From positions 3,212-67,211 of the forward strand of contig JABRVX010000044.1 of NCBI GenBank assembly GCA_039961735.1: a stretch of 64,000 bases of DNA, given 5' to 3'. The DNA is from Fimbriimonadia bacterium (lineage in GTDB: Bacteria > Armatimonadota > Fimbriimonadia > Fimbriimonadales > JABRVX01). Both the position numbers and the translations under genes were made by a program. The notes beneath the pieces were generated by a model that saw only the letters and a list, made by a program, of their open reading frames with translations, did no database searches and was not told where the DNA came from. Positions 11,620-64,000 of this stretch are shown here, piece by piece. The first letter of the stretch is position 1; each line of letters opens with the position of its first letter.

Positions 11620-11708
11620 TTGTCATCTACATGGACCAGTCCGTCGGTTGTCACGTAGTTTCGCCTCTCGGCGTAACATCGCCAGCACTCCGACAGGCGC
11701 GATGGAAC

Positions 11709-11815
11709 CGCCACACCGAGCCTGTCGCAGCGTACTTATGCACTTGGTGAATGGAGCAGCGTAAAGGGATGGCACGCCACACACGACTGCACGCCTCGAC
11801 AGGCTCAGCGTGACG
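11709..11815. repeat. 107-nt REP-doublet/MITE-like element (degenerate copy)
   Basis: Arms cgccacaccgagcctgtcgcagcgt and acgcctcgacaggctcagcgtgacg enclose a 57-nt interior. Confidence 0.6.
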
Positions 11816-11965
11816 TGAGCGGGCCACCGCTCCAGAACATCAGGGCTGTGAGTTGCCCCAGAGGGTACTCATACCTCAAGGGAACCAGTCACCAGGGCGA
11901 ACTCGGGGGACTAGGGTTGTATGGCATGGACCCTGTCGCTCAGGTGGCAGCGCTCAGAGTTCACG

Positions 11966-13384
11966 CTAATCCAGGTTCGGGGGGGTCCACGATGGATTCA
12001 GTTTGCGTCGCTCCCTGAATACATCCGCTCGGGCGTTCATCGTGGCTTGCAGCGAGGATTCGTCGTGCACGAGGCCCTGCCGGAGCCACGGCACGTTCAT
12101 CATCAGCGCGCCAAGTTGTTTCCAACCGCCACTCGGGGCTCGATCTACCACGTCGAGGGCAGGTCGGATCCTCTCCAGGTCCTGTGTGAGTTGGCTGCGC
12201 GCCGCGGTCACCGCCTCCATCAAGAGAACAGTATAGAAGTCCGGCCACAGCCAGAAGCGAGGTCGCATGTATCTGCGAGCGGCATGCGCGGCGAGAGCCT
12301 CTACTGCAGTCCGACGAACCTGATAGGGTAGTAGCACACGCTCTCGAATGGTCGAGAGTTGATTGGCGAAGCTGCGACCGAAGGTTTCCAAGAGACTCTC
12401 GAAGCGCTCCTGGGCTTTCCGGAGCGGTTGCATTTTCCACTCTTCGGCGAGTGCGCCGCCAGTTAGCGCGCCGACGATGCCTACCAGGATGGCCCCGCCC
12501 AGAGCACCGATTGGTCCGAGGAACCAACCTAAGGCCCCACCCAGCTTCGCACCTGCAATGACACCGACACCGCGGCCGACACTCTCCATTGCAGTGTGTT
12601 TCACAGCAGTGAGCGGATCCTGATCGTAGTCCCGGACCAGTTTGTAGTTTCTGTACGCCGCGAAAGCGAAGGTGATCCAGGGAAGGTGCATACCCAGCCC
12701 GTGTGCTGCGATCTCGCCCTTGGCACCGGCGATTGCCTCCTTTGTCGCCTCTTTCGCGGTGTCGTGGCTGAAGCCAGGCAGAGGGATGATGTTCTCGCCG
12801 ACTTCGCCGTGGGCGTCTTGGGGGACATAGTAGGTCACTCCCGGGTTAGCCGCAGCCTCGCCTTTGATAGCAGCGATATCGGCTACCGTCTTGATGTTTG
12901 CCGGGTGCCCGTCTACCAGCAGATCCCACACAGGCTGATTGGCCTCCGCCGCGACCTGAACAGCGTGTCCTTGGTGCGCCAAGAGGTCCGCCGCCTGCTG
13001 CTCGCCGACGTAGCCGACCAGGCGGTTCAGGAATCCTTCCTTCGCCGCGGCGTCGAGCGACTCGTAGTGCTGGTGGATGTAGTGCGCAAAATCGAGGCCG
13101 CTATGAATCTCGGCTGTCGAAGAGAAGTCGGCCGCGGCGGTCACGTCCGGGTCGATCATTGCCCACGCGGCTACGTACTCCGCCCCGGTCATGGCAGAGT
13201 ACGAAGCGAGCTCCGCCGGCGAAATCTTGCTTCTATACAGCCGCGAAGCCAGCCTAGAGGACCACTTGCGCGCTGGACCGTCCAGATGAATGCGCTCTTT
13301 GGCACGCTTACGTAGTACGGTGAAGGCGATGAGCCAAGCCATGAGCCACACGACCGCGCCGATCCCGAGTACGTAGTATATCAT
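11966..13384 (-). CDS. Membrane-anchored hypothetical protein with a PD-(D/E)xK-like motif and a glycine zipper
   Basis: N-terminal TM helix; GYVGE...WDLLVDG..NIK; GVIAGAKLGGALG...GAILVGIVGALTGG. Confidence 0.7.
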   Translation of the reverse strand: MIYYVLGIGAVVWLMAWLIAFTVLRKRAKERIHLDGPARKWSSRLASRLYRSKISPAELASYSAMTGAEYVAAWAMIDPDVTAAADFSSTAEIHSGLDFAHYIHQHYESLDAAAKEGFLNRLVGYVGEQQAADLLAHQGHAVQVAAEANQPVWDLLVDGHPANIKTVADIAAIKGEAAANPGVTYYVPQDAHGEVGENIIPLPGFSHDTAKEATKEAIAGAKGEIAAHGLGMHLPWITFAFAAYRNYKLVRDYDQDPLTAVKHTAMESVGRGVGVIAGAKLGGALGWFLGPIGALGGAILVGIVGALTGGALAEEWKMQPLRKAQERFESLLETFGRSFANQLSTIRERVLLPYQVRRTAVEALAAHAARRYMRPRFWLWPDFYTVLLMEAVTAARSQLTQDLERIRPALDVVDRAPSGGWKQLGALMMNVPWLRQGLVHDESSLQATMNARADVFRERRKLNPSWTPPNLD

Positions 13385-19321: not shown

Positions 19322-19571
19322 TCCCCATGCCCTGCTACATCCCGACCAGACTTTAGCAAGTCCGTAAGGGCTGTAGGCCCAGTCCCTCAGGACACGCCAT
19401 CCAGCCTTACCTGCCTCTGCGGGGTGGTAGCGACCCTCACCGCCGGTAGCGGGACACCTGTTCAGTATGCGGCTTGAGGTTCACACAAGGCAGCAGCGGT
19501 CGGAACCTCCAGTCGCCCAATCGGAGGGCGGATGGATTGATAGGGGCATCTTACCTAACGCAGATCGTGAC

Positions 19572-19678
19572 CGTCATGCCGAGCTTGTCGAAGCATGACG
19601 GGTGCTTCGACAGGCTCAGCATGACGTTAGCTTCGGCAGGCCCGGCATGACGTTTGCTTCGACAGGCCCGGCATGACG
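19572..19678. repeat. REP-arm cluster: one forward arm plus three tandem 26-nt reverse arms
   Basis: cgtcatgccgagcttgtcgaagcat, then units ending gcatgacg at 19601, 19627 and 19653. Confidence 0.85.
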
Positions 19679-19734
19679 GGTGACAGGATGAGCCGTGATA
19701 GCAGAGAAGCGGGCGCCTCGACGCTTGGCTGATG

Positions 19735-24583: not shown

Positions 24584-24613
24584 CTATTCCTCCCACTTCG
24601 GGTGGTGAGGAAG
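24584..24613. repeat. degenerate copy of the TTCG-loop hairpin at 63937-63975
   Basis: ctattcctcccacttcgggtggtgaggaag compared with ctattcttcaccacttcgagtggtgaggaatag. Confidence 0.6.
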
Positions 24614-24637
24614 ACGAATCAACAAAGACTTCTTCCC

Positions 24638-24744
24638 CATCATGCTGAGGCCGTCGCAGCATGTAGCCGAATGCCAGCATGGTAGTGCCATTCGCCGTGA
24701 CCACGTGACTCACGATGTCATGCTTCGACAATCTCAGCATGACG
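24638..24744. repeat. 107-nt REP-doublet/MITE-like element
   Basis: Arms catcatgctgaggccgtcgcagcat and atgcttcgacaatctcagcatgacg; 57-nt interior. Confidence 0.8.
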
Positions 24745-25072: not shown

Positions 25073-25103
25073 CTGTCATTCCTCGCTTCGCTCGGAATGA
25101 CAG
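25073..25103. repeat. palindromic intergenic repeat
   Basis: ctgtcattcc-tcgcttcgctc-ggaatgacag hairpin. Confidence 0.6.
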
Positions 25104-29834: not shown

Positions 29835-30002
29835 GTGCCGCCGATCCACTGCCGCAAAGCAGAGCCCGAACATCTGGGCAACATCTGCCTGCGACTGGGT
29901 GGTAGGCGGCTGGAGTGGGACCCTGTGAAGGAGGACTTCCGGGCAGACGCCGAGGCGAGCCAGATGGTCGCCCGCACGATGCGTGGGGCCTGGAGCGTGT
30001 AG
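29835..30002 (+). pseudogene. C-terminal fragment of a Gfo/Idh/MocA oxidoreductase
   Basis: HLGNICLRLGGRRLEWDPVKEDF..DAEA..M..R..RGAW* with no catalytic domain upstream. Confidence 0.7.
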
Positions 30003-30121
30003 CGCGACCGGCCTCGTCGCCACTCACAGCGGCGGAGTAGCAGTGCTGTGTCCATCCGAGGGCGGATGGGCACATGGGTAACTTCCAACCCACACCGTCA
30101 TCGCGTCGTCACCGCCGACAG

Positions 30122-30225
30122 CGTCATGCTGAGCCCGTCGAAGCAAACGTCATGCTGAGCCCGTCGAAGCAAACGTCATGCTGAGCCCGTCGAAGCAAAC
30201 GTCATGCTGAGCCCGTCGAAGCATA
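30122..30225 (+). repeat. Four tandem 26-nt REP-arm units
   Basis: cgtcatgctgagcccgtcgaagcaaa three times plus a fourth copy ending gcata; no spacers. Confidence 0.95.
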
Positions 30226-30277
30226 CAGCCGTAAGCCGCGAACGTGGCACCGGAAGACGATATCGTTCGGCACGTCC

Positions 30278-30383
30278 CGTCATGCTGAGCCCGTCGAAGC
30301 ATGCGTTCGCAGGCAGCACGTCACGCCTTCAGGTGCTACGGAGGCGGCATCCGGCGTCATGCTTCGACGGGCTCAGCATGACG
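30278..30383. repeat. 106-nt REP-doublet/MITE-like element
   Basis: Perfect 25-nt inverted arms cgtcatgctgagcccgtcgaagcat with a 56-nt interior. Confidence 0.9.
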
Positions 30384-30592
30384 AGCTAGGCAAAGGCCAC
30401 AGGAGCCGTATACCTTCTTCCACTGCGTCTGCGATGCCTCCACTGCCCCTGTGGTGGAGGCCAGCCCGCACTTGCACGCCTCGATGTTTCGCCTGCCAGG
30501 GTTGTGTGCAGACGACAGCGTCCCGTGCCGGTCCGTCGGGATCAAAGGCTGCCGCGTGCGGGGCGAGCGAGCTGTGCGAAGGCAGCCGGGTG

Positions 30593-63500: not shown

Positions 63501-63630
63501 GCGCCGCGACGGCGTAGATAAGCCCCGTGCGATCACCCCATCTTCCGGCGGCAAGGTCGGGCGCAACGATCCGTGTCCGTGCGGGAGCGGAAAGAAATAC
63601 AAGTTCTGCTGCATGCGCAAGGCGGTGTAA
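60511..63630 (+). CDS. secA: Preprotein translocase ATPase SecA
   Basis: EMKTGEGKT, VDEVDSILIDEARTP, TNMAGRG, RRIDNQLRGRSGRQGDPG, SEC-C motif GRNDPCPCGSGKKYKFCC. Confidence 0.99.
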   Translation: MLNDLFRRWFDTSDKEIKAAEPIVAAVNALEPEMQALSLARLREKSDEFRKRLQDGETTDDLLVEAFAVCREAARRTLNMRHFDVQLMGGVVLYKGMIAEMKTGEGKTLVATLPLYLIGLEGRGAHLVTVNDYLARRDAVWMGAIYHALGLSVGVIQGQSAESDELGGSYRYVPGYEAADPRYNNLEPCTRREAYECDITYGTNHEFGFDYLRDNMAFDKSQLNQRELHYAIVDEVDSILIDEARTPHIISGIASEDVSVYGKIDSVVKRLVKDQHFTVDEKSHQVSLNDSGYERIQELLGIANLAEHPEMMHYVNAGLKAHHLFHRDVEYVVKDGEVVIVDDTTGRLMFGRRFSDGLHQAIEAKEKVPIRHESQTVAVITFQNLFRLYHKLAGMTGTAKTEEDEFRKIYGLEVVVVPTYKKMIRTDHPDVVYKSEEQKFRGIAREILRLYVKQQPVLVGTRSIEMSEKVSGRLTADKLQTLILIDRIRDKIQGDKSISKQDRSEILEVINRPLEPPTENSQLPGQQVKKAPRELLKRSDLHDILRRFGIATDPLAPEHGEWFVNQHGLPAENIEHFDEAIRHGIPHNVLNAKFHEKEALIIAEAGRKGAVTIATNMAGRGVDILLGGSIAKQEDTQSVEQQEAEAKEIAAGTFVSHRRGGKQRAAPPLPLSEQERSELAAEVVKLGGLYILGTERHESRRIDNQLRGRSGRQGDPGESRYFVSLEDRLWQVFGANMLANPLLKSWPEDEPIEVKFLSNTIRKIQERIEFHFFEYRKHVLEYDDVINVQREKIYSDRRKVLLGADMRDKVLEDLETEIELRLDAFFDPETNEWNYEGVYRSMNELFPLVQYVPLEEIQGLKREELYDKLVSTMHRAYEDRERELGTETVRMLERMIVLRAINDKWMEHLASIDQLREGIGLRGYAQQDPLIAFKKDSHELFLETLANISRMVAMWAFHVQVQREPVTPRQMVRLDEHPAGSQASPPEALAGRPTNDGRRDGVDKPRAITPSSGGKVGRNDPCPCGSGKKYKFCCMRKAV

Positions 63631-63671: not shown

Positions 63672-63708
63672 CCCTATCCCTGACCACTGCGAGTGGTCAG
63701 GGATAGGG
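63672..63708. terminator. 17-bp perfect hairpin after secA
   Basis: ccctatccctgaccact-gcg-agtggtcagggataggg; no T tract, so it may be a repeat element rather than a terminator. Confidence 0.5.
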
Positions 63709-63755
63709 GCGAGAGGGTGGTCCGGTACGCTTTGGATATGACCTACACCTGTCCC

Positions 63756-63862
63756 CGTCATGCTGAGCCCGTCGAAGCATGAGGCCGGGAGCTGCCATGG
63801 TAGTCCCCGACGCTATCAGCATGCGGCTTGCCCGGGCATGCTTCGACGGGCTCAGCATGACG
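63756..63862. repeat. 107-nt REP-doublet/MITE-like element
   Basis: Perfect 25-nt inverted arms with a 57-nt interior. Confidence 0.9.
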
Positions 63863-63936
63863 GGTACGTCGTCCTTCGTATGCAAAGCACAAGATATGCA
63901 TAACGCCAGGCCGAGAGACATTATCAACCAGGGAAC

Positions 63937-63975
63937 CTCCTATTCTTCACCACTTCGAGTGGTGAGGAATAGGAG
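63937..63975. repeat. 18-bp hairpin (second palindrome family)
   Basis: ctcctattcttcaccact-tcg-agtggtgaggaataggag. Confidence 0.65.
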
Positions 63976-64000
63976 CGAGAGGAGACCGTCCTCACGATCA

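What the first reader, a model, noticed from the sequence alone, without database searches (positions are those of the whole stretch)
11709..11815. Family of 106-107 nt elements with fixed geometry (copies at 11709, 24638, 30278, 63756)
Seen: four elements with 25-nt inverted arms (consensus cgtcatgctgagcccgtcgaagcat) enclosing 57, 57, 56 and 57 nt. The 24638 and 63756 interiors align without gaps at 32 of 57 positions by my count, sharing catggtagt at the same offset. The 30278 interior matches them in reverse orientation. Arms and length are conserved while the interior drifts. Established: REP doublets (REPINs) are mobilised by RAYT Y1 transposases. Inference: an undescribed REPIN/MITE family whose arm spacing is under selection.
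Basis: partly seen in the sequence, partly recalled or inferred. Interest (0 to 1): 0.7.

Follow-up and report, generated by a model that had tools for sequence, protein, structure and literature searches.

The report
Hairpin-repeat doublets of an Ssn-like nuclease
The 107-base elements are real: they are inverted pairs of a hairpin repeat that also brackets a single small GIY-YIG (Ssn-like) nuclease gene elsewhere in this genome, so they are a new variant of a repeat-plus-nuclease system described in 2025, not a transposase-driven REPIN family.

Summary
The 25-nt arm occurs 12 times in the window (0 expected) and 232 times in the 3.2-Mb genome. Of 52 convergent neighbouring arm pairs, 32 are exactly 57 nt apart and 42 are 56-59 nt apart. 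Arms are 93% alike between copies; interiors are 43-48% alike.

The RAYT reading fails. The only Y1 transposase gene is flanked by a different repeat. Instead, one 388-bp unit on another contig (C45:54698-55085) has the same inverted arms around a single-copy 93-110-aa GIY-YIG nuclease gene. Homologous genes in many phyla are bracketed by the same core (CTGAGCNNGTCGAAG) in 38 of 80 loci, and the stem bases covary. This is the architecture published for Ssn nucleases and their "Ssn-related motifs" (Chenal 2025). However, this arm class does not fit the published degenerate motif.

The 107-nt elements are gene-less doublets of that motif and resemble REPINs. I saw no movement: there is no target duplication, no empty site was found, and several sites are shared with the sister species. 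At one shared site the arms stayed at 92% identity and changed symmetrically, while the interior drifted.

Verdict: a new variant of a known kind, of moderate interest.

The parts
11709..11815 (.). Decayed doublet. The arms are the ACGCT..AGCGT variant (7 and 4 mismatches to the consensus) and the interior is 57 nt. It lies between convergent ORFs, at a point where synteny with the sister species inverts.
19572..19626 (.). Two arms in inverted orientation separated by only 5 nt, that is, a doublet without an interior. At the orthologous site G001 has a full 57-nt doublet followed by tandem partial repeats.
19627..19680 (-). Two decayed arms on the minus strand, in tandem with 26-27-nt period, continuing the right arm of the hairpin at 19572-19626.
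24638..24744 (.). Doublet with a 57-nt interior and 3 mismatches in each arm. The orthologous G001 spacer holds only two decayed arms.
30122..30224 (+). Tandem array of four arms with 26-nt period. All four point inward, toward the doublet at 30278.
30225..30277 (.). Interior-type segment related to the interior of the doublet at C41:34401. It runs directly into the next arm.
30278..30383 (.). Doublet with perfect arms and a 56-nt interior. The interior is oriented opposite to those of 24638 and 63756. The doublet is part of a block that is duplicated at C30:15075.
63756..63862 (.). Doublet with perfect arms and a 57-nt interior, 126 nt downstream of the ORF that ends at 63630.

Best explanation
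Each arm is a hairpin-forming repeat of the kind published as an 'Ssn-related motif'. It is the cognate DNA site of a small single-domain GIY-YIG nuclease. In this genome that nuclease gene (called ssnB here) is single-copy, at G000:C45:54749-55027, and sits between two inverted arms in a 388-bp cassette.

The 107-nt elements are the gene-less form of that cassette. They consist of two inverted arms, about 15 nt of weaker sub-terminal inverted repeat on each side (G..CCG...GCCGC), and a linker of about 27 nt that is free to drift.

By analogy with the characterised Ssn enzymes, the nuclease would bind the arm only when the DNA is single-stranded, and would nick a few bases 5' of it. Because a doublet carries one 'sense' arm on each strand, either strand would be a substrate.

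The doublets are old residents of gene 3' intergenic regions and show no sign of recent movement. Their arms are kept alike at fixed sites, either by selection for nuclease recognition or by hairpin-templated correction or gene conversion. The linker drifts. Local tandem amplification and decay reshape the clusters.

Shown: the anatomy, the copy numbers, the gene-arm association here and across phyla, stem covariation, retention at orthologous sites, and symmetric arm changes.

Inferred: that this nuclease binds and cuts this arm; how the doublets arose and multiplied; and why the 57-nt spacing is kept.
For: 1. Gene between arms. The same arm brackets, in inverted orientation, a 338-nt segment encoding a GIY-YIG protein (Pfam PF01541, E 3e-12). 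The cassette is flanked by further arm arrays. The gene is single-copy.

2. Catalytic positions. Y7, Y17, R27 and E64 are invariant in the alignment with two homologues. The published Neisseria meningitidis (Nm) SsnA mutants that abolish cutting are Y6A, Y17A and E64A.

3. A canonical system in the same genome. A second small GIY-YIG gene, 37% identical (C48:85482-85772), is flanked by TGTCATTCCCGCGAAGGCGGGAATCCAG. That is the published Neisseria NTS (the Ssn target repeat) almost letter for letter.

4. Association across phyla. In 38 of 80 loci encoding ssnB homologues, the core CTGAGCNNGTCGAAG is present. Typically one + copy lies 45-60 nt upstream of the start and one - copy lies at the 3' end of the gene. 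About 0.004 matches are expected by chance. The two bases on each side of the core covary (CC/GG, TC/GA, GC/GC, CA/TG, TG/CA), which indicates a hairpin with the 11-nt loop GAGCYYGTCGA.

5. Co-distribution. An ssnB orthologue (79% identity, with an arm 44 nt upstream) and the arm family occur only in this genome and its sister species, not in 39 other relatives.

6. Shared sub-terminal sequence. The sub-terminal 25 nt of the cassette scores above all 5000 random genomic 25-mers against the profile of the doublet interior ends.

7. In-situ conservation. At the orthologous site C4:163701 / G001:C2:17557, each arm is 23/25 identical. Both arms changed CT to TC symmetrically. The interior is about 60% identical with a 9-nt deletion.

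8. Arm covariation. Genome-wide, the left and right arms of one element share variants (p <= 0.0015 at positions 9, 14 and 15).

9. Published biochemistry. Ssn enzymes bind their flanking hairpin repeat as ssDNA only and cut upstream of it (PMC11893778).

10. Placement. Doublets lie at gene 3' ends: 20 between convergent genes, 19 between tandem genes, 2 between divergent genes. Only 20 of 232 arms fall inside crude gene calls.
Against: - The arm does not match the published SRM degenerate sequence, and neither do any of the 80 homologous loci.
- Here the CGTCAT lead is part of a 9-bp stem. In the NTS it is an unpaired 5' flank. Recognition and cut position may therefore differ.
- Membership of ssnB in CDD family cd10448 could not be tested. 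Its best hits among solved structures are UPF0213 proteins.
- A distant genome, G323, has 121 arm-core matches but no detectable homologue. Its assembly is fragmented (370 contigs).
- No biochemical, expression or movement data exist for this organism.
- The variant C at arm position 9 keeps pairing between the two arms but breaks the hairpin within the arm. That fits a long inter-arm hairpin better than two separate nuclease sites.
- The mechanism that would hold the spacing at 57 nt is unknown.
Confidence: 0.7

Rival explanations
1. Host-selected structural elements, in the manner of BIME/REP repeats. On this reading the doublets persist because their long hairpins protect mRNA 3' ends, terminate transcription from both directions, or bind nucleoid proteins at a fixed spacing. 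The nuclease gene would merely have landed in, or captured, one copy.
For: - Doublets are strongly enriched between convergent genes: 20 of 41 classified doublets, against 18% of all gaps. They avoid divergent gaps (2 of 41, against 17.5%).
- Sites and arms are retained between two species.
- Compensatory changes keep the pairing between the two arms.
- Predicted hairpin energies are -42 to -79 kcal/mol.
- The constant length would fit a protein-binding spacer.
Against: - No T-run follows any doublet (0 of 94 flanks), so they are not canonical intrinsic terminators.
- The interior has no excess fold (mean z +0.29) and no conserved central sequence.
- This reading does not explain why the same core brackets homologous nuclease genes in 38 of 80 loci across phyla. 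It also does not explain why the arm and the gene are co-distributed.
- The two readings do not exclude each other.
Confidence: 0.17
2. A classical REPIN family mobilised by a RAYT (Y1/HUH) transposase.
For: - The doublets have fixed spacing and compensatory arm changes.
- One RAYT-like gene with HLH and YRWSS motifs exists in the genome.
Against: - That gene, at C59:226-546, is flanked by a different repeat (GGACCGCGCCGGGGC, 11 copies) and by 40-nt tandem repeats.
- The nearest arm is more than 20 kb away.
- No second Y1_Tnp match exists in a 98.9%-complete genome.
Confidence: 0.04
3. An actively transposing MITE derived from the nuclease cassette. On this reading the conserved arms reflect only recent copying from masters that have intact ends.
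For: - Homology between copies stops at the arm ends.
- Some interiors are 88-98% alike at unrelated loci, for example C41:34401 against C10:141653 at 95.6%.
- The interior ends resemble the sub-terminal sequence of the cassette.
Against: - There is no target-site duplication and no conserved target beyond a C at position -1.
- No filled-versus-empty polymorphism appeared in contigs of four metagenome studies.
- All orthologous sites examined in the sister species carry arms or relics.
- The identical interiors of C30:15075 and window 30278 lie in a segmental duplication.
- GIY-YIG enzymes are not known to perform strand transfer (my own knowledge).
Confidence: 0.07
4. A family of structured small-RNA genes.
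For: A stable hairpin is predicted.
Against: - There is no Rfam match in the window.
- The element is symmetric, with no promoter or terminator logic and no T-run.
- The interior is unconstrained.
- Interiors occur in both orientations.
Confidence: 0.02

Closest known systems
Ssn nucleases and their Ssn-related motifs (NTS/SRM), Chenal et al. 2025, Nat Commun 16:2388 (PMC11893778)
   Same: - The nuclease is a single-domain GIY-YIG protein of about 95 aa with the same catalytic positions.
- Its gene is bracketed by inverted hairpin repeats of 20-50 nt.
- The same repeat is dispersed in hundreds of mostly intergenic copies.
- The motif begins with CGTCAT.
- A canonical NTS-type system coexists in this same genome.
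   Different: - The arm has an 11-nt loop (GAGCYYGTCGA) and a 9-bp stem that includes the CGTCAT lead.
- It does not fit the published degenerate SRM sequence, and neither do any of the 80 homologous loci (0 of 80).
- In the sections I read and in a term search of the main text, the paper does not describe gene-less inverted doublets with a fixed spacing, symmetric co-variation of the two arms, or Armatimonadota.
- Activity of this enzyme is untested.
REPINs and RAYTs (Bertels and Rainey 2011, PMC3116915; my own knowledge)
   Same: - Two short palindromic repeats lie in inverted orientation at a sharply defined spacing.
- Compensatory changes keep the long hairpin.
- There is one single-copy partner gene flanked by the same repeat.
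- The elements are vertically persistent and lie in intergenic regions.
   Different: The partner is a GIY-YIG nuclease, not an HUH/Y1 transposase. The genome's only RAYT has its own, unrelated REP family.
Neisseria intergenic mosaic elements (NIMEs: RS units of 50-150 bp flanked by dRS3 inverted repeats; Parkhill 2000, my own knowledge)
   Same: Variable units of about 50-150 bp lie between inverted copies of the repeat that Chenal et al. redefined in part (nearly half of dRS3 copies) as the Ssn target NTS. They also form mosaic and tandem clusters next to genes.
   Different: The arm sequence is different. The phylum is different. Here a single sharp interior length (57 nt) dominates.
Correia elements (NEMIS) and other bacterial MITEs (my own knowledge)
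   Same: Total length is about 105-155 bp with terminal inverted repeats of about 26 bp. They are intergenic and present in many copies.
   Different: Correia elements have conserved interiors, a TA target duplication and insertion polymorphism. None of these is seen here.

Membership tests
Ssn / SRM system (PMC11893778) | The partner is a small single-domain GIY-YIG protein of about 90-110 aa. | tested here: met
   Pfam PF01541 at E 3.3e-12 over residues 5-75 of a 93-110-aa ORF, with no other domain.
Ssn / SRM system (PMC11893778) | The catalytic Tyr, Tyr, Arg and Glu are intact. | tested here: met
   Y7, Y17, R27 and E64 are invariant in alignment A1. The published inactivating SsnA mutants are Y6A, Y17A and E64A.
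Ssn / SRM system (PMC11893778) | The gene is flanked on both sides by inverted hairpin repeats of 20-50 nt. | tested here: met
   Arms lie at C45:54698-54722 (+) and 55061-85 (-). The same layout occurs at homologues in many phyla.
Ssn / SRM system (PMC11893778) | The same repeat is dispersed in many, mostly intergenic, copies in the genome that holds the gene. | tested here: met
   There are 232 arms, of which 20 lie inside crude gene calls. Gene and arms are co-distributed in 2 of 41 relatives.
Ssn / SRM system (PMC11893778) | The repeat fits the published degenerate SRM sequence HGTCWYN(0-2)YYVSBRHN(0-5)WNVSBRGN(0-2)RNCYNB. | tested here: not met
   The arm does not match. The regex does match the canonical NTS-type repeats beside the second GIY-YIG gene. 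None of the 80 ssnB-like loci matches.
Ssn / SRM system (PMC11893778) | The protein belongs to CDD family cd10448, in the clade of Nm SsnA. | not testable with these tools
   Only proxies are available. The protein is 37% identical (E 4e-9) to the NTS-flanked paralogue at C48. Its best hits among solved structures are UPF0213 proteins 1zg2 and 1ywl.
Ssn / SRM system (PMC11893778) | The enzyme binds the motif as ssDNA only and cuts just upstream of it. | not testable with these tools
   This needs purified protein and oligonucleotide substrates.
REPIN / RAYT | Inverted repeat doublets at a fixed spacing, with compensatory arm changes. | tested here: met
   32 of 52 convergent pairs are exactly 57 nt apart. 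Left and right arms covary with p <= 0.0015. A symmetric CT to TC change occurred at an orthologous site.
REPIN / RAYT | A RAYT (Y1/HUH) gene is flanked by the same repeat. | tested here: not met
   The single PF01797 hit, at C59:226-546, is flanked by a different repeat.
MITE (including Correia type) | Terminal inverted repeats with a target-site duplication. | tested here: not met
   Inverted ends are present, but no direct repeat flanks any of the 47 doublets. The only flank signal is C at position -1 in 55 of 94 flanks.
MITE (including Correia type) | Insertion polymorphism: filled and empty sites between strains or close species. | tested here: not met
   No 107-nt skip appears in contigs of four metagenome studies. 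Contigs of two of them span the 11709 and 24638 copies unchanged. Nine orthologous sites in G001 that could be read all carry arms or relics. Two more hold unexamined inserts of 1.0-1.25 kb. Four could not be compared.
Rfam RNA families | A match at gathering score. | tested here: not met
   There are 0 matches in the window.

The most novel reading that the evidence does not exclude
Ssn-type GIY-YIG nucleases may have their own equivalent of REPINs. These would be inverted doublets of the nuclease's hairpin site, offering a 'sense' site on both DNA strands. The two arms would be kept identical at fixed chromosomal sites by hairpin-templated correction or nuclease-triggered conversion, not by transposition.

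The arm would belong to a pan-bacterial class of Ssn target with the loop GAGCYYGTCGA. This is the source of the 'FDKLR/LSLSK' junk peptides seen in many annotations (that link is my own recollection). The published SRM motif misses this class entirely.
Probability: 0.35. Interest if true: 0.6.

Novelty: new variant of a known kind. Interest (0 to 1): 0.45.

Why it matters
Ssn nucleases were described only in 2025, as the first site-specific nucleases that cut single-stranded DNA only. Each enzyme-motif pair is a potential ssDNA tool, and the biology of the repeats outside Neisseria is open.

This locus contributes four things:
- It supplies an enzyme-motif pair with a recognition hairpin that the published search motif does not detect. 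That hairpin is shared by homologues in Alpha- and Gammaproteobacteria, Bacteroidota, Nitrospirota/Nitrospinota, Chloroflexota, Lentisphaeria and others. Surveys based on the published motif may therefore under-count the family.
- It shows that such repeats can organise into REPIN-like doublets with a lineage-specific spacing.
- Comparison of two species shows arms conserved and co-varying at fixed sites while the linker drifts. This argues for maintenance rather than movement, and it bears on whether these repeats are selfish, domesticated or both.
- The genome holds two Ssn systems side by side: a canonical NTS type with about 10 repeats, and this type with about 230. That is a natural test of specificity.

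Tried and rejected
- RAYT/IS200 partner. One PF01797 hit exists, flanked by an unrelated repeat.
- Known RNA family. The Rfam gathering scan of the window found nothing.
- Structured interior. Interiors fold no better than dinucleotide shuffles (mean z +0.29). Mirror-position pairing is only about 43% against 33-39% for shifted registers.
- Target-site duplication or target motif. None found.
- Canonical terminators. 0 of 94 flanks have a T-run.
- Decayed nuclease genes in the longer (194-235 nt) interiors. tblastn found no GIY-YIG remnant. These are a third arm variant (ACGCT..AGCGT) with an unrelated interior of about 200 nt.
- Recent transposition from the identical interiors at C30:15075 and window 30278. 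They lie in a segmental duplication that extends into the neighbouring gene end.
- Empty-site search. The 20-kb window query and a joined-flank query for 12 doublets, followed by alignments, gave no clean empty site. Synteny simply ends at the 30122 cluster.
- Population polymorphism. Metagenome contigs from four studies show no skip of an element, and contigs break at the arm clusters.
- Literature search for the core sequence gave only chance primer matches. A search for later Ssn papers gave nothing relevant beyond Chenal 2025. That paper's supplementary tables are not held.
- Universal geometry. Rejected, because G323 and Parasphingorhabdus doublets have other spacings.

Full report
**1. 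The observation**

The window is C44:3212-67211 of a 3.235-Mb draft genome with 77 contigs and 62% G+C. It is 98.9% complete. It occurs in bioreactor and sludge metagenomes. Earlier notes of this scan call it an Armatimonadota/Fimbriimonadia bacterium; I did not check that.

The consensus arm CGTCATGCTGAGCCCGTCGAAGCAT matches 12 times in the window at 3 or fewer mismatches, against 0.00 expected. The copies at 24638, 30278 and 63756 are as described. The copy at 11709 has the right geometry, but its arms are decayed and belong to an ACGCT..AGCGT variant.

Genome-wide there are 232 arms at 5 or fewer mismatches. Of 52 convergent neighbouring pairs, 32 are exactly 57 nt apart and 42 are 56-59 nt apart. 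Between copies, arms are on average 93% identical. Interiors are 43% identical, or 48% once each is oriented.

The arm also occurs in other arrangements. There are 37 singletons. There are tandem arrays with 26-nt period, always outside a doublet and pointing inward. There is also an arm-arm hairpin with a 5-nt loop.

**2. Anatomy**

The oriented interior has this consensus: G.c.cCGc..GCCGCatG.T.tCg.cttc.g.TgC.ACg.TcGCGGC...CGgc.gC.
- The conserved boxes are mirror-symmetric: G1/C57, CG/CG and GCCGC/GCGGC. The inverted repeat therefore really extends about 40 nt on each side.
- The central 27 nt or so carry little information.
- Taken alone, the interior folds no better than shuffled sequence (mean z +0.29).
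- The arm plus the next four bases (GACG) can form its own hairpin: a 9-bp stem CGTCATGCT/AGCATGACG with the loop GAGCCTGTCGA.
- The two arms can also pair with each other. Whole-element energies are -42 to -79 kcal/mol.

The left and right arms of one element share variants far more often than chance. At positions 9, 14 and 15 the permutation p is <= 0.0015. Mean mismatches are 1.02 within an element against 1.67 between elements. The C9 variant preserves pairing between the arms but not the hairpin within the arm.

Flanks are unrelated between copies, with no target duplication and only a C at position -1 in 55 of 94 flanks. Homology between copies stops at the arm ends.

**3. Genomic context**

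I made crude gene calls from ORF length and the GC3-GC2 difference. With these, 20 doublets lie between convergent genes, 19 between tandem genes, 2 between divergent genes and 3 inside calls. Among all gaps, 18% are convergent and 17.5% divergent. Only 20 of 232 arms fall inside called genes, although coding density is 82%. No doublet is followed by a T-run (0 of 94 flanks).

**4. The partner gene**

The genome has one Y1_Tnp (RAYT-like) gene, at C59:226-546. It is flanked by another repeat (GGACCGCGCCGGGGC, 11 copies) and by 40-nt tandem repeats, not by the arm.

I then listed all arm pairs 100-3500 nt apart. One pair, at C45:54698-55085, encloses 338 nt that encode on the minus strand the protein MKSPAVYILRCIDGRFYTGVT...EKQIKGWRREKKLALIE... 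This is a single-domain GIY-YIG protein (Pfam PF01541, E 3e-12) whose reading frame runs on through the arm as ...CFDRLSMT. The gene is single-copy.

**5. What is known about such genes**

Earlier notes of this scan pointed me to Chenal et al. 2025 (PMC11893778). That paper shows the following:
- Small single-domain GIY-YIG proteins (CDD cd10448, named 'Ssn') are site-specific nucleases that act on ssDNA only.
- They bind a hairpin repeat and cut a few bases upstream of it.
- Their genes are typically flanked on both sides by that repeat. The repeat is called NTS in Neisseria and SRM in general.
- The repeat is dispersed in up to hundreds of copies.

The Neisseria NTS is CGTCATTCCCGCGMAVGCGGGAATCYRG. 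The arm here shares the CGTCAT lead and the hairpin layout.

The same genome also has a second small GIY-YIG gene (C48:85482-85772, 37% identical to ssnB). It is flanked on both sides by TGTCATTCCCGCGAAGGCGGGAATCCAG, a canonical NTS that matches the published degenerate SRM sequence. The arm does not match that sequence. The sister species G001 also has both systems.

**6. The gene-arm link is general**

A scan of one genome per species for ssnB-like proteins returned 80 loci from many phyla: Lentisphaeria, Alpha- and Gammaproteobacteria, Nitrospirota, Nitrospinaceae, Chloroflexota, Bacteroidota, Ignavibacteria and others.
- The exact core CTGAGCNNGTCGAAG occurs in 38 of the 80 loci.
- Most often one + copy lies 45-60 nt before the start codon and one - copy overlaps the 3' end of the gene. 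This is the same geometry as in the C45 cassette.
- I expect about 0.004 chance matches in that much sequence.
- The two bases on each side of the core covary (CC/GG, TC/GA, GC/GC, CA/TG, TG/CA, GG/CC), and the stems extend to 9-12 bp.
- None of the 80 loci matches the published SRM expression.

Within the relatives of this genome, an ssnB orthologue (79% identity, arm 44 nt upstream) and the arm family occur together in the two species of this genus. They occur in none of 39 other genomes of the family and order. Elsewhere in the phylum the arm core is sporadic. One distant genome, G323, has 121 copies but no detectable homologue; its assembly has 370 contigs.

**7. Relation of the doublets to the cassette**

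The cassette carries the same sub-terminal boxes as the doublets. These are GACACCGATCCCCGC on the 3' side of the gene in G000, and GACCTCGGCGGCCGC on the 5' side in G001. The 25 nt next to the G000 arm score above all 5000 random genomic 25-mers against the doublet profile. The doublets can therefore be read as the cassette without its gene.

The geometry is specific to the lineage:
- 57 nt in G000 and G001. In G001, 39 of the 49 listed doublets have it.
- 48 nt between cores, with a nearly invariant interior, in G323.
- About 110 nt between core starts in a Parasphingorhabdus locus.

**8. Do they move?**

I found no evidence that they do. Contigs from four independent metagenome studies show no joint that skips an element. 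Contigs of two of them (X1, X3) span the 11709 and 24638 copies unchanged.

I compared 15 sites with the sister species, which is about 80-85% identical in genes.

| Site in G000 | G000 | Orthologous site in G001 |
|---|---|---|
| C4:163701 | doublet, 57 nt | doublet, 48 nt |
| C21:7991 | doublet, 56 nt | doublet, 57 nt |
| C24:9364 | single doublet | five tandem copies |
| C4:123566 | doublet | element present in the gap |
| window 19572 | interior-less hairpin | doublet plus partial tandem repeats |
| window 24638 | doublet | two decayed arms |
| C27:850 | doublet | decayed relic |
| C38:12964 | doublet | single arm |
| C1:7006 | doublet, 48 nt | eight co-oriented arms |
| C2:6314 | doublet | unexamined 1.0-1.25-kb insert |
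| C34:38991 | doublet | unexamined 1.0-1.25-kb insert |
| C3:102179 | doublet | only one flank found |
| C40:20604 | doublet | only one flank found |
| C17:13280 | doublet | flanks on different contigs |
| window 30122 | arm cluster | synteny ends there |

A sixteenth site, window 11709, coincides with a rearrangement relative to G001. No clean empty site appeared anywhere.

At C4:163701 each arm is 23/25 identical between the species. The only differences are the two loop positions, which changed from CT to TC in both arms. The interior is about 60% identical and has a 9-nt deletion.

The arms are therefore held at fixed sites, and the two arms of an element change together. Clusters evolve by tandem amplification, deletion and decay. 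The one pair of identical interiors at different loci lies in a segmental duplication. A few interiors that are 88-96% similar at unrelated loci show that some copying did occur in the past.

**9. Mechanism**

Most likely (0.7), the arms are the recognition hairpins of the ssnB nuclease, and the doublets are gene-less derivatives of its cassette. By analogy with SsnA, the enzyme would bind the sense arm in single-stranded DNA (a replication intermediate, transforming DNA or conjugative DNA) and nick just outside it. An inverted doublet offers a sense arm on either strand.

Arm conservation and symmetric change could come from selection for recognition. They could also come from correction within a long inter-arm hairpin, or from break-induced conversion between copies. 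Which of these operates, how the copies multiplied, and why 57 nt is kept are all inferences.

With pairwise interior divergence of about 0.9 substitutions per site, I would expect several indels per pair if length were free. Yet 68% of copies have exactly 57 nt. That argues for a length constraint, or for descent from 57-nt masters.

The main rival (0.17) is a host-selected structural role at gene 3' ends.

**10. Novelty**

The kind of system, an Ssn nuclease with a cognate hairpin repeat, is published. Three things I could not find in the papers I searched:
- this motif class, with its 11-nt GAGCYYGTCGA loop, which is missed by the published motif but widespread;
- the REPIN-like doublet organisation with a lineage-specific spacing;
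- the two-species evidence for symmetric conservation of the arms at fixed sites.

I therefore rate it a new variant of a known kind, of moderate interest.

Noticed in passing
G000:C48:85200-86000 (outside the window): A second small GIY-YIG gene (C48:85482-85772) is flanked on both sides by canonical Neisseria-type NTS repeats, TGTCATTCCCGCGAAGGCGGGAATCCAG. About 10 such repeats occur genome-wide. Two Ssn-type systems with different motifs therefore coexist in one genome, and G001 has the same pair.
   Followed up: partly
window 25076-25102, compared with L020:661-690 (G001): A third GTCAT-type hairpin repeat, GTCATTCC-GAGCGAAGCGA-GGAATGAC, sits at an orthologous position in both species. Its 11-nt loop is reverse-complemented in G000 (TCGCTTCGCTC) relative to G001, while the stem is unchanged. 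This looks like an in-place hairpin-loop inversion.
   Followed up: no
window 24588-24616, 63680-63716, 63925-63980; also left of G000:C4:123566: Another repeat family: a hairpin CC(A/T)CCACTTCGGGTGG..(A/T)GG followed by GGAATAGGAGCGAGAGG. It is present three times in tandem at C4:123300-123560, and often lies within 100 nt of the arm elements.
   Followed up: no
window 19520-19545 and 30050-30075; L020:270-290: A short hairpin, TCCATCCGAGGGCGGATGG(A), recurs about 50-70 nt upstream of arm clusters in both species.
   Followed up: no
G000:C59:1-1000 (outside the window): The only RAYT-like Y1 transposase gene (with HLH and YRWSS motifs) lies at a contig start. It is flanked by its own REP (GGACCGCGCCGGGGC, 11 copies genome-wide) and by four to five tandem 40-nt repeats (CGGCGACAGCCGACCGGGACGCGGGCCAGGGCATGGATCG).
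   Followed up: partly
G000:C25:88-331, C39:4777-5037, C42:46864-47148: A third arm variant, CGTCACGCTGAGCCTGTCGAAGCGTG, in which the stem is changed in a compensated way. It encloses a shared interior of about 200 nt with no GIY-YIG remnant. The decayed window copy at 11709 has this arm type.
   Followed up: partly
window 11629-11978: Synteny with the sister species (G001:C8) switches strand exactly in the spacer that holds the decayed doublet at 11709. The doublet may mark an inversion breakpoint.
   Followed up: no
window 29890-30390, compared with G000:C30:15075-15560: A segmental duplication of about 500 bp covers a gene end plus the arm cluster. The flank is 95.6% identical. The number and placement of the tandem arms differ between the two copies.
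   Followed up: partly
L008:9050-10750, L019:160-600, L113:350-730 (G001): In the sister species the doublets are often embedded in larger tandem repeats with periods of about 57, 120 and 325-370 nt. They are preceded by arrays of a 17-nt unit (GACGTCATGGTGACACT) that resembles the left half of the arm.
   Followed up: no
G323, many contig ends (for example C1:30-107, C66:9-86): A distant genome of the same phylum carries a nearly invariant 78-nt doublet built on the same core, at the ends of dozens of contigs. No ssnB homologue was detected there. This could be a recently expanded repeat, possibly the end of a larger element that breaks the assembly.
   Followed up: no
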